Shown in pieces: positions 482-11,077 of a stretch of DNA of 11,077 nt. Source of the DNA: a virus; the UHGV virus genome UHGV-0128589. One strand, 5' to 3'. Below the pieces are notes generated by a model. That model ran no database searches. It saw nothing but the letters and a program-made list of their open reading frames with translations, and was not told the DNA's origin. The position numbers and the translations under genes were made by a program. The stretch's first letter is position 1, and every line of letters begins with the position of its first letter.

Positions 482-683
482 ACAATTTCAGCCTTGTAGC
501 CTTTCAAGGGTTTTGTGTGGGTACAAACATTATCGAATCGGGGTATAGCCGCAGCTGTAGCTGTATCCACATCAGTAAGTTGATGTAGGTTGACTTAGGT
601 TGAGCGAAAAATAGCGAAAAGCCTTGTGTGGCGCGGATTTCAGTCATAAAAAAACGTCCGTTGATGTCTATTGATGTTCCGAT

Positions 684-722
684 GGTGCGAAGGTGCGAAG
701 GTGCGAAGGCCGGACTCAAACC
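684..722. repeat. att-like degenerate copy of the tRNA-Leu 3-prime end (left boundary of the element), preceded by GGTGCGAA x3 tandem repeat
   Basis: ggtgcgaaggccggactcaaacc (700-722) matches tggtgccgaaggccggactcgaacc at 11024-11048 with one indel and one substitution; three tandem GGTGCGAA units at 684-707. Confidence 0.6.
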
Positions 723-792: not shown

Positions 793-920
793 ACCATTTA
801 TTTGATAATTTTAAGCTCAACTAATTGGTTTATCTCGGAAAAGATAACAAATCCTATCTTCGGTTTGGATCCGTTGCACGGATCCAAATCGGAACAGAAA
901 AAAACTTTTTTTTAGGAAAA

Positions 921-1012
921 CTGTTCACACTGTTCACTAAGCATTTTTGTTTTTAATATTCAGTAAGTTATGCGGTGAATGGTTGGTGAACAGTGAACAC
1001 TTTACTGTTCAC
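921..1012. repeat. iteron cluster of TGTTCAC/GTGAACA octamer-like repeats (P4 ori/crr-type alpha-binding sites)
   Basis: ctgttcac at 921-928, 930-937 and 1005-1012; gtgaacag at 986-993; tgaacac at 994-1000; degenerate ggtgaat at 974-980; both orientations present. Confidence 0.6.
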
Positions 1013-1030
1013 TATTGCCGTTTTGCAGGT

Positions 1031-1055
1031 AAAAAAAGACCGGCGATAGCCGGTC
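1031..1055 (-). terminator. rho-independent terminator downstream of the alpha gene
   Basis: On the minus strand GACCGGC-TATC-GCCGGTC (perfect 7-bp stem) followed by TTTTTTT, 9 nt after the alpha stop codon. Confidence 0.7.
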
Positions 1056-1063
1056 AGGATAGG

Positions 1064-3397
1064 TTATTTCGCTGTGGGGTCATCGCACTTCGGCAGCCAG
1101 TCGGCGTTGCTTTCTTCCCTGAGCGCAAGATTGGTCTGTATGCCCTGATTTTTACGGCGCTTCTCATAACTCAGTCCGTACTCTTTTAGCATCGCTGGCA
1201 GTCCCTTGCCGAACATGGTGAGGCTAAGAGTATTCTTGTAGCCGTGGGCCTCCATGTACGCCAGGTAGGCATGATAGAGGTAAAGTCGCGGCTGACGCGG
1301 AATGATGTTGGCATTGCCAATATACATACCCTCAGGTTCCGGCAGCGCCTCCAGATAGCCACAAAAATCAAATGTCGGGTCGGCGTCGCGCTTGATGCTG
1401 AGCGCCTCGTCGGAATTCTGCTGTGACTGGAGCAGTGTGCGCGCGGTCATCGGGTCGCTGAACTTCTGCATTAGCTGGCGCACAATGACGGCCAGCTCGC
1501 GGGCGATTTTGTTCTTAAGCTGCGGGTCGCGTTCTTCCGGGGCAATCTGCTCCGGGAAATGCAGAATCACCCGGCGACGGGAAACACCGCCGCTGCGGTC
1601 AGTAAAGCGCATCGGGTTATTGTTCACGGCCAGAATCACCGCCGGAATATGGGTGGAGTACGCATCCTTGTATTTCGGGTCTACCGATACCGCATCCCCG
1701 CCGGTGATGGCCTTGAGTCCGGCTCCGTCACCACTCCATTTTTCCTGGTCAGGCAGTCGAATCAGCGAGAAGCCAATCAGTGCGGCACGTTCACGCGGTG
1801 ATTCCAGCGTTTCGATGGTGGCCGACGTGGCGTTATCTTCCCCGGCAAGCATGGTCGCAATTTCGGCCAGAATACTTTTCCCGCTGCCGCCGGGCCCGGT
1901 CACCTCAAGAAAGAGCTGCCAGTCGTAGCGGTTCGCCAGCACCATAAACAGCGCGGCCAGAATCACATCGCGTTTTTCTGGTCTGCCACCGGCAGCACGG
2001 TCGAGCCAGCGCCAGAAATCCGGTGCATGGGTTTCCAGCGTTTCGCCCTCCACCGGCGGGGTAAAATCGACATCACAGAGTGTGCGCAGCCAGTGCGATT
2101 TATCATGCGGGTTGAATGTGCCGGTGGCGGTATCAAGTACGCCGTTGCGAAAGCCAATCAGACGCCGTGCCGGGGCGTCCTGCTGCGGAATAATCAGTTT
2201 CAGGGTCTCCACCACCGAGGCAATTTTTCCCGACGAGAACGGTGCGCGCAGACGCTGGAACAACCCGGCCACGTCGCGGGCAAAGTCCGACGGCGGAATG
2301 ATTTTCCATATCCCGGCCTCATAACGGGACAGGAGCTGGCCGTTCGCGTCCACGGCCAGCGCTTCGCCGTAATGCTCATGCACCCGCATCGCTTTTTCAC
2401 TGGTGCTCATGGCGGTAAATTCCGCCTCGCTCATGGTAGTGAAAGGACTGTCAGCCGGTGGCCGGATGGCCTCATAAATGGCTTTCCGCATCGCCTCCTC
2501 ACCTTTCTGTTCAAATGCGTCATTCCAGTCACCGAACACCGGCGGCAGGGCAACAATACCGTCACAGGCTTCTGCGGCCGCTGCGGCTTTACTCTGGCCG
2601 TCGCCGTTCAGGTCGCGGTCGGCGGCGAGGACAATCTGACAGGCCGGGTATTTCTGACGGGCAAGGCTCGCCAGAGAAAGGAGGTTTGCGGACGACAGTG
2701 CCACCATGACGGTTTCCCCGGTCAGGTGATGTACGGTGAGCGCGGTCGCATAGCCCTCCGCTATCCACAGCCGTTTTCCCGCCTGTTTTTTCCCTTCGAT
2801 GGTGTGGCACGCTCCTTTTACCGCCCCGCCTTTCAGGGTGCGTTTGAGACCCTCAGAATTGATGAGCTGAAGGTTAACCAGTGCATCGGTATTGTCATAC
2901 AGCGGGACAACCACATCACCGGCGCGGAACGTCACGCCGCCGGTTTTATGCACGGCCGTGAGCGTCAGACATTCCAGAGCGGGGAAGCCCTTGCGGGTCA
3001 GGTAGGCGTTGCCGCTGGCCGTGCGGGTTTTCTCCATCAGTCTGACGGCCAGCGTGGCCGCCGCTTTACGGTCTGCTTCGGTTTCAGCCTCTGCGGCCAC
3101 AATCACCTCCGGGGCAACCGGCGACAGGTTACCGGCGACGACATTCACCTTTTGGGCTGCCTCTGACGGATTAACGCCGAACACCTTTTCAACCAGTTTC
3201 AGGCCATCCCCTGCGCCGCACTGGTTACAGAACCACGTCCCGCGACCCTCTTTATCGTCAAACCGGAAACGGTCAGAACCGCCGCACACCGGGCAGGGCT
3301 GATGCCGGTTTTTAATGACCTTCACCCCCAGCGCCGGGAGAATGCGCGGCCAGTGGCCGCACGCCTGTTTTACGGTTTCCGTTACGTTCATTTTCAT
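1064..3397 (-). CDS. alpha: P4-type alpha protein: DNA primase / SF3 replicative helicase
   Basis: 777-aa ORF; N-terminal CxxC...CxxC zinc-binding primase region (CPVCGGSDRF...FCNQCGAG); Walker A P-loop GPGGSGKS in the C-terminal half; RBS GGGAGAA upstream; flanked by iterons, as for P4 alpha. Confidence 0.95.
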   Translation of the reverse strand: MKMNVTETVKQACGHWPRILPALGVKVIKNRHQPCPVCGGSDRFRFDDKEGRGTWFCNQCGAGDGLKLVEKVFGVNPSEAAQKVNVVAGNLSPVAPEVIVAAEAETEADRKAAATLAVRLMEKTRTASGNAYLTRKGFPALECLTLTAVHKTGGVTFRAGDVVVPLYDNTDALVNLQLINSEGLKRTLKGGAVKGACHTIEGKKQAGKRLWIAEGYATALTVHHLTGETVMVALSSANLLSLASLARQKYPACQIVLAADRDLNGDGQSKAAAAAEACDGIVALPPVFGDWNDAFEQKGEEAMRKAIYEAIRPPADSPFTTMSEAEFTAMSTSEKAMRVHEHYGEALAVDANGQLLSRYEAGIWKIIPPSDFARDVAGLFQRLRAPFSSGKIASVVETLKLIIPQQDAPARRLIGFRNGVLDTATGTFNPHDKSHWLRTLCDVDFTPPVEGETLETHAPDFWRWLDRAAGGRPEKRDVILAALFMVLANRYDWQLFLEVTGPGGSGKSILAEIATMLAGEDNATSATIETLESPRERAALIGFSLIRLPDQEKWSGDGAGLKAITGGDAVSVDPKYKDAYSTHIPAVILAVNNNPMRFTDRSGGVSRRRVILHFPEQIAPEERDPQLKNKIARELAVIVRQLMQKFSDPMTARTLLQSQQNSDEALSIKRDADPTFDFCGYLEALPEPEGMYIGNANIIPRQPRLYLYHAYLAYMEAHGYKNTLSLTMFGKGLPAMLKEYGLSYEKRRKNQGIQTNLALREESNADWLPKCDDPTAK

Positions 3398-3411: not shown

Positions 3412-3732
3412 TCAGTGCACAACAGGCGATTGCATGTGACGGGCGCAGAGTTCATCCATCACCGCAAGCCCGAGAAAGGACAGTGACGGCGCGGCTTTCA
3501 GTGGCCCGCCTTCCATTAAATCTTCCAGCAGGGCACAGGCAATCAGGCGGCCTTTTTCCTCGCCGTACTGGCGCAGATAGAAGCCTTCCAGTCCGGCAGC
3601 AATGGCGCTTTCCAGTGCATCAAGGGTGAGATGTGGATAGCGGTGCTGACGTTCGCACAGGGTCAGCCAGGCACAGGCCACGGCGCGACGATACAGCGCA
3701 GCACGCAGAACAGGGGATAATGAATTTTTCAT
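3412..3732 (-). CDS. small protein directly upstream of alpha; position matches P4 cnr (copy-number regulator), identity not established
   Basis: 106-aa ORF; its stop is 14 nt before the alpha start; its start overlaps the stop of the upstream ORF (ATGA), so likely co-transcribed. Confidence 0.65.
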
Positions 3733-3956
3733 ACATTGCCCTCCCCGGTCAGCCAGCGCTGATTGCAGCGTTCGACCACGCCGTCGAGCTGGGCGGTCAT
3801 GAGGTAAATCACGGAGGTAAGCTGTAACTGCTGCGCCGGGTCACGACGAATAGTGGCGCAGTCCTGCACCTGCATCAGTTCGCCGACGAGCTGGCCGACA
3901 TTGCGCATATGCTCCAGGCATTCGAGGTCACGGGCGGTAATGGTGGTGTGTCTCAT
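3729..3956 (-). CDS. hypothetical small protein of the left (replication) operon
   Basis: 75-aa ORF overlapping both neighbours by 4 nt (translational coupling); no recognisable motif. Confidence 0.55.
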
Positions 3957-4147
3957 GCGCGCACCTCCGCAACCGGCAGACGGCCAGCGAACGAGAGGAC
4001 GTAATCACGAACGAGGGAAAGGCGTGCGGCGTGTTCATCACCGGCAACGGTGCGGAGCATACAAATACGGGGTTTACGGTCTGCGCGACGTACAGCGGCA
4101 AACACAAAAACAAACTGCGGGTGTGACGGGGTGAGGGTCGTAGCCAT
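3953..4147 (-). CDS. Icd-like small protein (cell-division-inhibitor / P4 kil-position gene); the longer 183-aa ORF in the track is probably an artefact
   Basis: Internal start [16 protein letters not shown]... at 4147 with SD GGAGGT about 8 nt upstream (alternative ATG at 4171); N-terminus resembles proteins annotated Icd-like in P4-like prophages (from memory, unverified). Confidence 0.55.
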
Positions 4148-4350
4148 AGTGGCAACCTCCAATGTTTGCATGTGACTGCTACCACTGGAAACGCCAATTT
4201 CACTGGTGGTAGCCCAGACGGGGTTGGCGTAACCGGCAACATTGGAAACCGGCGCTTCGTGAGAAGCCCCCGCCTGAGCCACCATTACTCGAAGGATCCA
4301 AAGGTAGATAAATCTCTGGATCAAAAATGGATGCACTGAGGCATAGACAC

Positions 4351-4372
4351 AAAAAAAGACGCAAGGCGCGTC
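4351..4372 (-). terminator. candidate intrinsic terminator/attenuator inside the leader between the AlpA-like gene and the Icd-like gene
   Basis: On the minus strand GACGC-GCCTT-GCGTC (5-bp GC stem) immediately followed by TTTTTTT. Confidence 0.4.
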
Positions 4373-4500
4373 CGGTGTCGCCAATGTTGTAAACGGGACG
4401 CCAATCCCGGCTGCCGATTTTGCGACAGCGGGAAAACTATACCTGGAAACGGCAAACGGAAGCAAGCCAGAAAAAGGGACTTTTTGCTGAGCGGCCATCA

Positions 4501-4767
4501 TCATGCGTCATAACTCCGGTTGCGTTCGGCAATGCGATCCGCCATCCATGCGGTGATTTCAGACTGTGCCCACGCCACGTTTTTTCCGCCGAGGGAGATT
4601 TGTTTCGGGAATGCCTCGCGGCTGATGAGGTCGTAAATGGTCGACCGGGACAGGCCGCATAAATGCATCACTTCGGGCAGACGGATAAAGCGCTCCTGAA
4701 CGACATCAGAGACCGGCATCAGCGGGGCGGCAGGGGCAGAAGACGGGGAAGAAAAAGCGGTGTGCAT
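4501..4767 (-). CDS. AlpA/Vis-family helix-turn-helix regulator / excisionase
   Basis: 88-aa ORF with typical AlpA core [46 protein letters not shown]; SD GAGGT 7 nt upstream of the ATG at 4767; internal start at MPVSD also possible. Confidence 0.85.
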
Positions 4768-5034
4768 CGGGCTACCTCATAAAGTCCATACAGTGCCGGT
4801 CGTGTCCGTCCGGCTTCGGGTAGCTCTCTATTTTGTGAATATTTTTACTCAGGGCAACAAGTCATTTTGTAGTGGCTTACCATACAACAGATTGATTTTT
4901 AAACAATGGCAAACGCTGGCAAACAGATGCAAATCACTGCATTACATTGCAGCAACTTTTATTTCTTTTACTTATATATTTTTCTTTATCAATCGAAAAA
5001 AAGTCTAAGTGATATCGTCAGTGCAAAAAACAGA

Positions 5035-5140
5035 GGGTGAACAGTAGTGAACAGTCAGTGAACAGTTACACCCTCAACTGTTCACCCTTTATCTTACTGT
5101 ATTAATTATCTTTTTCTTTTTAGTGAACAGTAGTGAATAG
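5035..5140. repeat. second iteron cluster of GTGAACAG/CTGTTCACC repeats (P4 ori/crr-type)
   Basis: gtgaacag at 5037-5044, 5047-5054, 5058-5065 and 5123-5130; ctgttcaccc at 5078-5087; gtgaatag at 5133-5140; about 4.1 kb from the cluster at 921-1012. Confidence 0.65.
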
Positions 5141-5305: not shown

Positions 5306-6043
5306 ATGACTCAGACCGCTGTTATTCCCGACTATCTTAAACCCGCAATGGAACACCTTGAAACTGCCCGGTCAGCGCATCTTGCCAATGCCAGTCGAAT
5401 GGATGAAACCACGGCTGCCATCAGCCAGGTAAAAGCACAAAAAAATGAACTGGAGCAGGAAAATGGCAATGATTCCGGTGCATGGCGCACCGCCTTTCGT
5501 GCCGGTGGTGCTGTGATTACTGACGAGCTGAAACAACGCCATATAGCGCGTGTAGCACGGCGTGAACTGGTACAGGAATGTGACAGCATGACAGAGGTAT
5601 TGTCTTTTGAGCTGGACAACCTAAAGGGAGCCTGTGACAGCACGGCCAGAGCGTACCGCCAGGCACATCACGGCGTCCTCAGCCAGTATGCAAAGCATGA
5701 GCTCGATGTTGCCCTGCGTGAAACCTGTGGTGCTCTCGTCAGGGCAATGAAACTTAACATACTGGTTCTGAATAACCCTCTTGCCAATACCATCGGCCAT
5801 CAGGGATATACCGAACCGGAAAAGGCTGTGATGCAGCAGGTTAAAGCGTGGCTTGAACAGGCAGTGAAGGGCTGCAACATCCGCCTGACCGATGAGCCGG
5901 TGCTGTTTAAAACAGGACTGTCGGCCTCCACGCTGCCTCATATGGAGTATGACGTTGCGGCCACGCCCGGCCAGCGTCAGGTGTGGTTCGAGAAAATGAA
6001 CAAACGTGAGTCTGACCTTAAGGCCCGGGGGTTACTGTCATGA
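5306..6043 (+). CDS. sid: Sid-like capsid size determination (external scaffold) protein
   Basis: 245-aa product from the internal ATG at 5306 with SD GAGGAG upstream; first gene of a sid-delta-psu arrangement; the ORF-track start at 5240 has no RBS. Confidence 0.8.
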   Translation: MTQTAVIPDYLKPAMEHLETARSAHLANASRMDETTAAISQVKAQKNELEQENGNDSGAWRTAFRAGGAVITDELKQRHIARVARRELVQECDSMTEVLSFELDNLKGACDSTARAYRQAHHGVLSQYAKHELDVALRETCGALVRAMKLNILVLNNPLANTIGHQGYTEPEKAVMQQVKAWLEQAVKGCNIRLTDEPVLFKTGLSASTLPHMEYDVAATPGQRQVWFEKMNKRESDLKARGLLS

Positions 6044-6285
6044 TGCGCTGCCCTTTCTGCCGCACGGCGGCCCATGTGCGCACCAGCCGCTATATGTCTG
6101 ACAGCGTCAAAGAGAGCTACCTGCAGTGCCAGAATGTGCACTGCTCGGCGACGTTCAAAACACATGAGTCGATTTTTGAAGTGATCCGCTCGCCGGGTGT
6201 CGATGAGAAACCCGCGCCGGTGCCGACAGCGTCCGTTGCCATCCGCAAGGTAAAAGGCTGCTACAGCTCACCGTTCCGCCATTAA
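6040..6285 (+). CDS. delta: Ogr/Delta-family zinc-finger late transcriptional activator (single domain)
   Basis: 81-aa ORF with CPFC...(21 residues)...CQNVHC zinc-finger spacing; start overlaps the sid stop (ATGA). Confidence 0.85.
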   Translation: MMRCPFCRTAAHVRTSRYMSDSVKESYLQCQNVHCSATFKTHESIFEVIRSPGVDEKPAPVPTASVAIRKVKGCYSSPFRH

Positions 6286-8710: not shown

Positions 8711-9503
8711 ATCGCACGACCCTTTTCAAAACTTTGATGGGAGTGATACTCCCAACCTCTCCGTGCTTTCTCATAAACCCCTCAATATCAACTGTATAAA
8801 AATCATCTAATTTTTCATCAGTATTATCTTCGAAATCTTTAAAGTGATTATGTTCCCGTCTCTTTTTTGATTTACTTAACAAAGTCAAATCGTTAGCATT
8901 CGATAATTCGCTACCTGCTAATTTCTTCAAGTAATCATCAGAAGTTTCTTTATAGCGTTGCTTAATTGCTTTAAGCGCAAAGTCTCTAATTCTAGATAGG
9001 GGAATTTGTTCAGCTATACGCTCTAAAGCCTCACGACCAGACTCGAGTAAAAACTTTTTCCCATTTTCAACAAGAAGTAATTGCAACTCTTTTTTCAGTA
9101 AGAAATTAATATAAACCTTCTTATTACCGAGTACTGCCGTACGCCCACGCTGAACTATTTTAAAACGAATGCCTTTACTAGTATTTATGTATTCAATAAC
9201 ACCAACATCTGATGTTACTTTCTTCGCAATTTCATAAGTAAATTTTGGGGCACAAACAACAGTTACCTTTTCAAAACGAGATGTAAAGGTTTCTAACTGA
9301 CCATCTAATCTTTTAAGAGAGTCAAAATCACTTTTTATTTCAAAAGCTTGCAAGTGTCCATTCGCAACGGCCAGATCAGCGCGGCGACTCCAATTCGCTA
9401 CAACCATTTCATTAATAATGGTTGCGTTCTCTAACAAGCCTTTTTTAAAAAGCCAGTCAATAAATGCGACTTTTACATCTTGCTCTCTTAATAAAAATGA
9501 CAT
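8709..9503 (-). CDS. stand-alone protein with N-terminal PD-(D/E)xK nuclease-like domain and charged helical C-terminal region
   Basis: 264-aa ORF; motif order E7 ... RADLAV (D42) ... AFEIKSD (E54-x-K56) fits the PD-(D/E)xK core; own extended -10 promoter and own terminator; very AT-rich. Confidence 0.8.
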   Translation of the reverse strand: MSFLLREQDVKVAFIDWLFKKGLLENATIINEMVVANWSRRADLAVANGHLQAFEIKSDFDSLKRLDGQLETFTSRFEKVTVVCAPKFTYEIAKKVTSDVGVIEYINTSKGIRFKIVQRGRTAVLGNKKVYINFLLKKELQLLLVENGKKFLLESGREALERIAEQIPLSRIRDFALKAIKQRYKETSDDYLKKLAGSELSNANDLTLLSKSKKRREHNHFKDFEDNTDEKLDDFYTVDIEGFMRKHGEVGSITPIKVLKRVVR

Positions 9504-10910: not shown

Positions 10911-11023
10911 ATGACATCAGGATTTCAACGGACAACCTCGGACGACTCAGGACGTAAAAATCGCTGCAAGCATTGATTTTTAAGGGATAATTGGACTTTC
11001 TCGGATGGTCTTGGAAGTACTTA

Positions 11024-11077
11024 TGGTGCCGAAGGCCGGACTCGAACCGGCACGTATTTCTACGGTTGATTTTGAAT
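11024..11077 (-). tRNA. leuX: tRNA-Leu(CAA), leuX-type, 3-prime portion only (truncated by the window edge)
   Basis: Reverse complement reads ATTCAAAATCAACCGTAGAAATACGTGCCGGTTCGAGTCCGGCCTTCGGCACCA: anticodon loop with CAA, variable arm, T-arm GGTTCGAGTCC and acceptor end with CCA; matches E. coli leuX as I recall it. Confidence 0.85.

What the first reader, a model, noticed from the sequence alone, without database searches (positions are those of the whole stretch)
921..1012. Iteron cluster downstream of alpha (ori or crr)
Five to six TGTTCAC-type octamers in both orientations sit just beyond the alpha terminator. P4 alpha protein binds TGTTCACC iterons in ori and in crr, which lie about 4.5 kb apart. 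The spacing to the second cluster here is about 4.1 kb.
Basis: partly seen in the sequence, partly recalled or inferred. Interest (0 to 1): 0.45.

Follow-up and report, generated by a model that had tools for sequence, protein, structure and literature searches.

The report
P4-type crr replication site, single-unit
The repeat cluster is the counterpart of the well-known "crr" replication site of satellite phage P4, sitting in a complete P4-like prophage of E. coli, so it is real but ordinary.

Summary
Five exact TGTTCAC heptamers and one degenerate copy lie at 922-1013, in both orientations, just past the alpha terminator. The window holds 12 such heptamers against 1.2 expected by chance, and 10 of them fall in two clusters 4.1 kb apart.

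The window is a complete P4-like satellite prophage next to tRNA-Leu. [quoted passage not shown] The second cluster, 5036-5139, matches P4 ori1, including its 35-bp AT-rich spacer.

The differences from P4 are small:
- There is one 120-bp unit instead of two.
- The eighth iteron base is often T rather than C.

A single unit is the commonest arrangement among 80 alpha-homologue loci from other Enterobacterales: 28 single, 16 tandem as in P4. Iteron columns are the best conserved part of the unit.

The mechanism is inferred from P4 experiments, not tested here. Alpha's winged-helix domain binds the iterons at ori1 and crr, bridges them, and starts replication at ori1.

Verdict: a new member of a known kind, of low interest.

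The parts
899..1018 (.). Single 120-bp crr unit. It starts with an A6-C-T8 tract (899-913) and holds six iteron positions.
   Evidence: It aligns gap-free to P4 crr repeats 4291-4410 and 4471-4590, with 75 of 120 columns invariant in the three-way alignment. An nhmmer profile of the unit scores 104 bits here, with one hit only in the window. Against P4 there is a 180-bp gap covering the spacer and the second repeat.
922..929 (+). Iteron TGTTCACA
   Evidence: same column as P4 type 1 repeat 4314-4321 / 4494-4501
931..938 (+). Iteron TGTTCACT
   Evidence: same column as P4 type 1 repeat 4323-4330 / 4503-4510
974..981 (-). Degenerate iteron: GGTGAATG on the + strand, CATTCACC on the - strand
   Evidence: Read. 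It lies in the same column as P4 GGTGAATA (4366-4373), which the P4 record annotates as a type 1 repeat.
985..992 (-). Iteron TGTTCACC, the only full P4 octamer in this cluster
   Evidence: P4 has GGTGAAGG in this column, which is not annotated as an iteron there.
992..999 (-). Iteron TGTTCACT
   Evidence: same column as P4 type 1 repeat 4384-4391 / 4564-4571
1006..1013 (+). Iteron TGTTCACT
   Evidence: same column as P4 type 1 repeat 4398-4405 / 4578-4585
1029..1055 (-). Intrinsic terminator of the alpha operon (t-alpha homologue)
   Evidence: Terminator scan: 7-bp stem with 6 G-C pairs, then T7. It aligns to the annotated P4 t-alpha 4604-4628.
1064..3397 (-). alpha gene: primase, helicase and origin-binding protein, 777 aa
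   Evidence: 83% identical to P4 alpha over 775 aa with no gaps. Residues 671-770 match PDB 1KA8, the P4 alpha origin-binding domain, at E = 2.8e-46.
3412..3732 (-). ORF106 homologue. From my own knowledge, ORF106 is P4 cnr, the copy-number regulator.
   Evidence: 85% identical to P4 ORF106 over 106 aa
5036..5139 (.). ori1 homologue. Iterons lie at 5036-5043 (-), 5046-5053 (-), 5057-5064 (-), 5079-5086 (+), 5122-5129 (-) and a degenerate one at 5132-5139 (-). A 35-bp AT-rich spacer lies at 5087-5121.
   Evidence: It aligns to P4 ori type 1 repeats 9310-9413 with the same order and orientation.

Best explanation
[quoted passage not shown] It is a single 120-bp unit carrying five good and one degenerate binding site (iterons, TGTTCAC plus C or T) for the C-terminal winged-helix domain of the element's own alpha protein.

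Proposed mechanism:
1. After derepression and excision, alpha binds the iterons here and the six iterons of ori1, 4.1 kb away.
2. Alpha oligomers bridge the two sites into a DNA loop.
3. This allows opening of the AT-rich stretch inside ori1, loading of the alpha helicase-primase, and theta-type replication.
4. The ORF106 (Cnr) homologue would modulate alpha binding and so copy number.

Shown here: the repeats, their non-random clustering, homology and synteny with the experimentally defined P4 crr and ori, the cognate alpha and ORF106 genes, and conservation of the iteron columns in about 100 related units.

Inferred from P4 experiments (recalled, see the Against line): alpha binding, ori-crr looping, the requirement in cis, and the role of Cnr.
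For: - Heptamer excess and clustering: 12 observed against 1.2 expected, with no shuffle of 200 reaching 12.
- The P4 record X51522 annotates crr at 4291-4590 as two 120-bp repeats, each with five 'ori type 1' repeats in the order + + - - +.
- Window 899-1018 aligns gap-free to both repeats with the iterons in register.
- The flanks are syntenic: att arm repeats, then a palindrome, then crr, t-alpha and alpha.
- The second cluster aligns to P4 ori, including the AT-rich spacer.
- Alpha is 83% identical to P4 alpha and carries the 1KA8 origin-binding domain. ORF106 is 85% identical. Homologues of 11 of the 13 annotated P4 ORFs are present.
- Of 80 loci encoding alpha homologues (58-94% identity) from other Enterobacterales, 69 have at least one crr-like unit downstream of alpha. 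Of these, 28 have a single adjacent unit, as here.
- In 101 unique units, iteron columns carry 1.54 bits against 1.02 for the other columns (Mann-Whitney p = 1.3e-5).
- crr-like units occur in 1325 of 5426 complete E. coli genomes.
Against: - Nothing functional was tested. Alpha binding and the cis requirement are carried over from P4.
- The primary P4 papers are not in the held library. These are Flensburg & Calendar 1987, Ziegelin et al. 1993 and Tocchetti et al. 1999. Their content is cited from my own knowledge only.
- The defining P4 architecture of two 120-bp repeats separated by 60 bp is not met: only one unit is present.
- Four of the six sites depart from the P4 octamer at base 8, and one is degenerate at two bases.
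- The alpha winged-helix domain differs from P4's at 24 of 100 residues (counted from the alignment), so affinity could differ.
- The conservation test is partly circular. The units were collected with a profile built from three sequences in which the iterons were already the conserved columns.
Confidence: 0.88

Rival explanations
1. The cluster is homologous to crr but serves mainly as a negative copy-number control. It would act as an iteron array that titrates alpha or 'handcuffs' the origin, as incA of P1 or the extra iterons of F and RK2 do, rather than as a positive cis-acting replication site.
For: It is an iteron array outside the AT-rich origin. It has no AT-rich opening region flanked by iterons, unlike the 5087-5121 spacer in ori1. 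An ORF106/Cnr homologue is present. From my own knowledge, Cnr stimulates alpha binding and limits replication in P4.
Against: From my own knowledge, crr in P4 is required for replication rather than inhibitory. The P4 record itself calls it 'cis required region for replication', and a later P4 engineering preprint treats it as essential for replication. A purely inhibitory site would be lost easily, yet the unit is kept beside alpha in most related elements.
Confidence: 0.05
2. The cluster is the replication origin itself, where DNA is opened, and the 5036-5139 cluster is the auxiliary site.
For: Both clusters carry the same iterons. The unit begins with an A6-C-T8 tract, and GC falls to 23% at 900-959.
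Against: Sequence homology assigns 899-1018 to the annotated P4 crr and 5036-5139 to the annotated P4 rep_origin. Only the latter has the 35-bp AT-rich spacer flanked by regularly spaced iterons.
Confidence: 0.03
3. The site is an inactive relic. The sequence descends from a crr, but this prophage no longer replicates, so the site does nothing today.
For: Many P4-like elements in genomes are defective, and primase genes are often pseudogenes (PMC13586616). One iteron is degenerate at two bases, and the sixth ori1 iteron is also degenerate.
Against: All reading frames homologous to P4 genes are intact and of full length, including alpha at 777 aa. Both iteron clusters, t-alpha, the att arm repeats and the immunity RNA are present. 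The degenerate position is also degenerate in functional P4.
Confidence: 0.08
4. The repeats are a chance cluster, or belong to the integrase attachment site.
For: The cluster lies about 200 bp from the att core copy (about 700-721).
Against: No shuffle of 200 reaches the observed count. The Int arm-type repeats have a different sequence (GTGCCCCC, 773-792) and align to the annotated P4 arm repeats, separately from crr. The unit follows alpha rather than the integrase type: the palindrome and arm repeats recur only in a subset of loci, while the unit is general.
Confidence: 0.01

Closest known systems
[quoted passage not shown]
   Same: It has the same position, between t-alpha and attP. The 120-bp unit is homologous and aligns gap-free. 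Iteron positions and orientations match. A cognate alpha protein has the same origin-binding domain. A partner ori1 cluster lies 4-5 kb away on the far side of the alpha operon.
   Different: There is one unit instead of two units separated by 60 bp. Ungapped identity to either P4 repeat is about 68%. The eighth iteron base is T or A in four of six sites, where P4 mostly has C. An extra full-consensus iteron lies at 985-992, where P4 has GGTGAAGG.
P4 ori1 (rep_origin, type 1 repeats 9310-9413)
   Same: It uses the same iteron sequence and, by inference, the same binding protein.
   Different: ori1 has six closely phased iterons around a 35-bp AT-rich stretch. The window has its own homologue of ori1 at 5036-5139. 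The finding aligns to crr, not to ori1.
Distant iteron sites that act with an origin through initiator-mediated DNA looping, such as R6K pi protein between the gamma-origin iterons and the alpha/beta origins (own knowledge)
   Same: One initiator binds repeated sites kilobases apart on the same molecule, and the distal site is needed in cis.
   Different: The proteins and sequences are unrelated. This is an analogy of mechanism only, not membership.
Replication modules of other phage satellites, such as SaPI/PICI primase-Rep next to an iteron origin (own knowledge)
   Same: A satellite-encoded helicase/primase initiator acts with its own iterons.
   Different: In those elements a single iteron origin lies next to rep. 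The bipartite ori plus crr arrangement is peculiar to P4-like elements.

Membership tests
P4-type crr | Lies directly downstream of the alpha gene terminator, between alpha and the att site | tested here: met
   Alpha stop at 1064, terminator at 1029-1055, unit at 899-1018, att arm repeats at 773-792, att core copy at about 700-721
P4-type crr | Sequence homology to the 120-bp crr repeat of P4 | tested here: met
   Gap-free three-way alignment with 75 of 120 invariant columns; nhmmer score of 104 bits
P4-type crr | Several type 1 iterons (TGTTCACC-like) in both orientations, in the order + + - - + | tested here: met
   Sites at 922+, 931+, 974- (degenerate), 985-, 992- and 1006+, in register with the annotated P4 sites
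P4-type crr | Two direct 120-bp repeats separated by about 60 bp, as annotated in P4 | tested here: not met
   Only one unit is present: a 180-bp gap against P4 and a single profile hit in the window. This is the commonest state in relatives, 28 single against 16 tandem of 80 loci, so the pair describes P4 rather than the family.
P4-type crr | A cognate alpha protein with a C-terminal winged-helix origin-binding domain encoded in the same element | tested here: met
   83% identity to P4 alpha; residues 671-770 match PDB 1KA8 at E = 2.8e-46
P4-type crr | A partner origin (ori1) with the same iterons and an AT-rich stretch several kb away on the same molecule | tested here: met
   5036-5139 aligns to the P4 ori type 1 repeats; 35-bp AT-rich spacer at 5087-5121
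P4-type crr | Bound specifically by alpha protein | not testable with these tools
   Needs EMSA or footprinting. Known for P4 only, from my own knowledge of Ziegelin et al. 1993.
P4-type crr | Required in cis for replication from ori1 | not testable with these tools
   Needs a plasmid replication assay. Known for P4 only: the record calls it 'cis required region for replication'.
P4 ori1 | Six closely phased iterons flanking an AT-rich opening region, upstream of the left operon and sid | tested here: not met
   The finding has no such AT-rich spacer between phased iterons and lies downstream of alpha. The ori1 homologue is elsewhere, at 5036-5139.

The most novel reading that the evidence does not exclude
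The single-unit crr together with the relaxed eighth iteron base (TGTTCAC plus T or C) might mark a separate replicon-specificity group among P4-like satellites. This pattern is seen at both crr and ori1 in the window and in its closest alpha clade, whereas the P4 clade has tandem units and C at base 8. The clade's alpha winged-helix domain, 24 of 100 residues different from P4's, might prefer its own iterons. That would let two or more P4-like elements in one cell replicate without cross-talk; E. coli genomes that have any crr-like place have a median of two. My evidence shows only the correlation, not any difference in binding.
Probability: 0.1. Interest if true: 0.35.

Novelty: new member of a known kind. 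Interest (0 to 1): 0.12.

Why it matters
The finding has little novelty. It confirms that this prophage carries the full bipartite P4 replicon: alpha, the ORF106/Cnr homologue, ori1 and crr.

It has two practical uses:
- crr-like units occur in about a quarter of complete E. coli genomes but are never annotated. The 120-bp unit is therefore a handy marker for the alpha-side end of P4-like satellites. It could help delimit elements whose cargo genes lie beyond alpha.
- A single unit is the commonest natural arrangement. This suggests that one unit suffices and that the duplicated crr of the laboratory phage P4 is a lineage feature.

Tried and rejected
- Primary P4 replication papers could not be read. 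PMC413647, PMC372931 and the J Virol 1999 DOI are not held, and full-text searches gave only secondary mentions. The mechanistic statements about alpha binding, looping and Cnr therefore rest on my own knowledge.
- The ACS Synth Biol paper's 'crr' hits were mostly 'crRNA'.
- ARAGORN found no tRNA, because the tRNA-Leu gene is cut by the window end. It was identified only through BLAST hits at 11022-11077.
- No promoter-like site lies in 500-1150, and no Rfam family covers the site, so an RNA or promoter reading was dropped.
- I asked whether P4's two repeats arose as a simple 180-bp tandem duplication. The 60-bp P4 spacer matches nothing else except near-identical P4 copies in L034 and L036, and by eye it does not resemble the sequence upstream of repeat 1. 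Units at the same position in different elements are more alike (0.82) than the two units within one element (0.66). This uses a crude ungapped identity. It points to an old duplication rather than a recent one, so I cannot say whether the single unit is ancestral or a deletion.

Full report
**1. What is in the sequence**

Window 901-1020 reads ...aaaactgttcacactgttcacta...gcggtgaatggttggtgaacagtgaacactttactgttcactatt....

Exact TGTTCAC heptamers lie at 922 (+), 931 (+), 986 (-), 993 (-) and 1006 (+). A sixth, degenerate site is GGTGAATG at 974-981. Only 985-992 is the full P4 octamer TGTTCACC; the others end in A or T.

The window holds 12 heptamers against 1.22 +/- 1.11 in 200 dinucleotide-preserving shuffles, and no shuffle reaches 12. 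Ten of the 12 fall in two clusters, 922-1012 and 5037-5129, which are 4115 bp apart. The other two are isolated, at 112-118 and at 1621-1627 inside alpha, which is what chance predicts.

The repeat finder reports the same sites as direct and inverted repeats. A strong terminator-like hairpin lies between the cluster and the stop codon of the 777-aa ORF at 1064-3397 (-). Its stem is at 1038-1055, followed by T7 on the minus strand.

**2. What the surroundings are**

Megablast of the window against phage records finds phage P4 (X51522 / NC_001609) at about 84% identity over alpha, ORF106, crr and int.

Protein identities to P4:

| Gene | Identity to P4 |
|---|---|
| int | 96% |
| ORF106 | 85% |
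| alpha | 83%, 777 of 777 aa, no gaps |
| beta | 74% |
| ORF88 | 70% |
| cI-region ORF | 69% |
| sid | 66% |
| psu | 62% |
| gop | 59% |
| cII | 56% |
| delta | 40% (81 aa here, 166 aa in P4) |

Other points of context:
- Rfam finds the P4-type immunity RNA set (C4, isrK, c4-a1b1) at 4202-4442 on the minus strand.
- The right end (11022-11077) matches tRNA-Leu genes.
- Window 560-721 is 100% identical to many E. coli chromosomes near nanM.
- A copy of the P4 att core (GGCCGGACTC...) sits at about 700-721, followed by the Int arm-type repeats at 773-792.

The window is thus a complete P4-like satellite prophage, from about 700 to about 11050, in an E. coli-type chromosome.

**3. What the cluster is**

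[quoted passage not shown] It consists of two 120-bp direct repeats, each with five 'ori type 1' repeats in the order + + - - +. The terminator t-alpha (4604-4628) and then alpha follow directly.

Window 899-1018 aligns without a single gap to both P4 repeats. In the three-way alignment 75 of 120 columns are invariant, and these are mainly the iterons plus an A6-N-T7/8 tract at the start of the unit.

In the pairwise alignment of the whole att-to-alpha interval, everything is collinear: att arm repeats, a 30-bp palindrome, the unit and t-alpha. The exception is that the window lacks 180 bp, which correspond to the 60-bp P4 spacer plus the second repeat. A profile of the unit hits the window once (104 bits) and P4 twice.

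The second cluster aligns to the annotated P4 origin. Iterons lie at 5036, 5046, 5057 (-), 5079 (+), 5122 (-) and a degenerate sixth at 5132 (-). A 35-bp AT-rich stretch at 5087-5121 occupies the same place as in P4.

**4. Related elements**

Alpha homologues of 58-94% identity were fetched from 80 loci in one-genome-per-species contigs. The genera include Kluyvera, Enterobacter, Citrobacter, Klebsiella, Raoultella, Pantoea, Pectobacterium and Serratia.

Exact heptamer clusters recur downstream of alpha and about 1.6-2.6 kb upstream of it in nearly all loci with at least 80% identity.

With the nhmmer profile at a score of at least 30, the arrangements are:

| Arrangement | Loci |
|---|---|
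| Single unit next to alpha, as in the window | 28 |
| Tandem pair next to alpha, as in P4 | 16 |
| One unit next to alpha plus one or two 1.3-2.2 kb further on | 8 |
| Single unit displaced by 0.3-3.1 kb | 11 |
| Displaced tandem pair | 3 |
| Other multiple arrangements | 3 |
| None detected | 11 |

In 101 unique units the 42 iteron columns carry 1.54 bits on average, against 1.02 for the other 74 columns (Mann-Whitney p = 1.3e-5). One caveat applies: the collecting profile already favoured these columns.

In complete E. coli genomes, crr-like sequence occurs at 2672 places in 1325 of 5426 genomes, and none of the sampled places carries an annotated feature.

The window's unit is closest to the single-unit loci, up to 93% identity with L007. 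These are also the loci whose alpha is closest, at 89-94%. In that clade about half of the iterons in both crr and ori1 end in T. In the tandem, P4-like clade the ori1 iterons all end in C.

**5. How it most likely works**

Shown here:
- The element encodes an alpha protein with primase, helicase and a C-terminal winged-helix domain. The last matches the crystal structure of the P4 origin-binding domain, 1KA8, at E = 2.8e-46 with 76 of 100 residues identical. PMC2777425 describes that domain organisation.
- The element has two clusters of the same short repeat, homologous to P4 ori1 and crr.
- It encodes the ORF106 homologue.

Inferred from P4 work, which I cite from my own knowledge because the papers are not held (Flensburg & Calendar 1987; Ziegelin et al. 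1993, 1995, 1997; Tocchetti et al. 1999; Yeo et al. 2002):
- Alpha binds the type 1 iterons of both sites.
- Electron microscopy showed alpha holding ori and crr together in a loop.
- Both sites are needed in cis for replication from ori1.
- crr works in either orientation and at altered distances.
- Cnr (ORF106) stimulates alpha binding and restrains copy number.

As a prophage the left operon is shut off by the C4-type RNA, so the site would be idle until derepression.

My recollection that one of the two P4 repeats is enough for crr function could not be checked. The comparative data support it indirectly, since a single unit is the commonest natural state in elements with intact alpha.

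**6. Rivals**

- A purely negative, titrating iteron array is unlikely, because the P4 homologue is required for replication.
- The site being the origin proper is contradicted by the homology assignment and by the missing AT-rich core.
- An inactive relic cannot be excluded without experiments, but all parts of the replicon are intact.
- Chance and att-site readings are excluded.

**7. Comparison and novelty**

This is the crr of a P4-like element. Every feature that could be tested is met except the duplication of the unit. The comparative data show that the duplication is a trait of the P4 lineage rather than of the family.

The kind of element has been known since 1987, and this copy is a new, uncharacterised member. 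The only mildly new points are descriptive:
- The single-unit form predominates.
- The T/C flavour of iteron base 8 goes with it.
- The unit is a good unannotated landmark for the alpha-side end of P4-like satellites.

Interest is low (0.12).

**8. Side observation in relatives**

Where the unit is displaced or split, the DNA between alpha and the distal unit carries variable cargo genes. Pfam matches are typical of defence genes:
- AAA_15 in L027
- Mrr_cat in L039
- Pua-like plus Metallophos in L055
- PIN_12 and DUF3800 in L056
- FRG in L052

By eye there are also toxin-antitoxin pairs.

In loci with the P4-type att, the arm repeats follow the distal unit, so the cargo lies inside the element. 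[quoted passage not shown] That paper does not mention crr. The window itself has no such cargo.

Noticed in passing
L009, L012, L014, L030, L041, L052, L053, L062 (split units); L018, L019, L027, L029, L039, L055, L056, L057, L065, L070, L078 (displaced units); coordinates relative to the alpha end are: In many related P4-like elements, 0.7-3 kb of variable cargo sits between alpha and crr, or between two crr units. Pfam hits are AAA_15, Mrr_cat, Pua-like+Metallophos, PIN_12, DUF3800 and FRG, and toxin-antitoxin-like pairs are seen by eye. A primase-to-att defence hotspot is already reported in PMC13586616, but its relation to the crr units is not mentioned there.
   Followed up: partly
window 684-721: The att core copy at the alpha-side junction carries a tandem triplication of GGTGCGAA (684-707) before GGCCGGACTCAAAC, where P4 has TGGTGCCGAAGGCCGGACTC. 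The stretch 560-721 is 100% identical in hundreds of E. coli chromosomes, so this odd junction is widespread. Just upstream is a short direct repeat, TTGATGTCTA / TTGATGTTCC (661-680).
   Followed up: no
window 861-891: A near-perfect 14-bp-arm palindrome, CGGTTTGGATCCGT..ACGGATCCAAATCG, lies between the att arm repeats and crr. It is conserved in P4 and in L029 and L063, which carry the same att arm repeats, but not generally beside crr units. It probably belongs to the att/int module. No T run follows it, so it is not an obvious terminator.
   Followed up: partly
window 4907-4936: At the position of the three 10-bp 'ori type 2' repeats of P4 (TTAAAG-type, 9176-9205), the window has three different decamers: TGGCAAACGC, TGGCAAACAG and ATGCAAATCA. 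The repeat architecture is kept but the sequence is replaced, which hints at a different binding specificity for whatever reads them.
   Followed up: no
window crr 922-1013 and ori1 5036-5139; loci L002-L012, L035, L043 against L010, L015, L019-L028, L038, L040: Iteron base 8 is a mix of T and C in the window and its closest alpha clade, which has mostly single-unit crr. It is uniformly C in the ori1 of the P4-like clade, which has tandem crr.
   Followed up: partly
window 4202-4442 (-): Rfam hits above gathering score to C4 antisense RNA (4202-4289), isrK (4352-4429) and the c4-a1b1 target (4390-4442). This is the P4-type RNA immunity system, overlapping the mechanically called ORF 3953-4504.
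   Followed up: no
window 3729-3956 (-) and 6040-6285 (+): The 75-aa ORF in the place of P4 epsilon/ORF151 has no BLASTP match to any P4 protein at E below 1e-3. The delta homologue is half length, 81 aa against 166 aa, and matches both halves of P4 delta.
   Followed up: no
E. coli genome hits H48-H72: crr-like units occur at 2672 places in 1325 of 5426 complete E. coli genomes, with up to 8 places per genome. Every listed place has no annotated feature under it.
   Followed up: partly
L013, L037, L044, L068, L075, L079, L080, L081: Some loci with full-length alpha homologues show no crr-like unit within 4 kb downstream at the threshold used. L081 has its ori-type heptamer cluster only 58-151 bp upstream of alpha. 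These may have a divergent or rearranged replicon.
   Followed up: no
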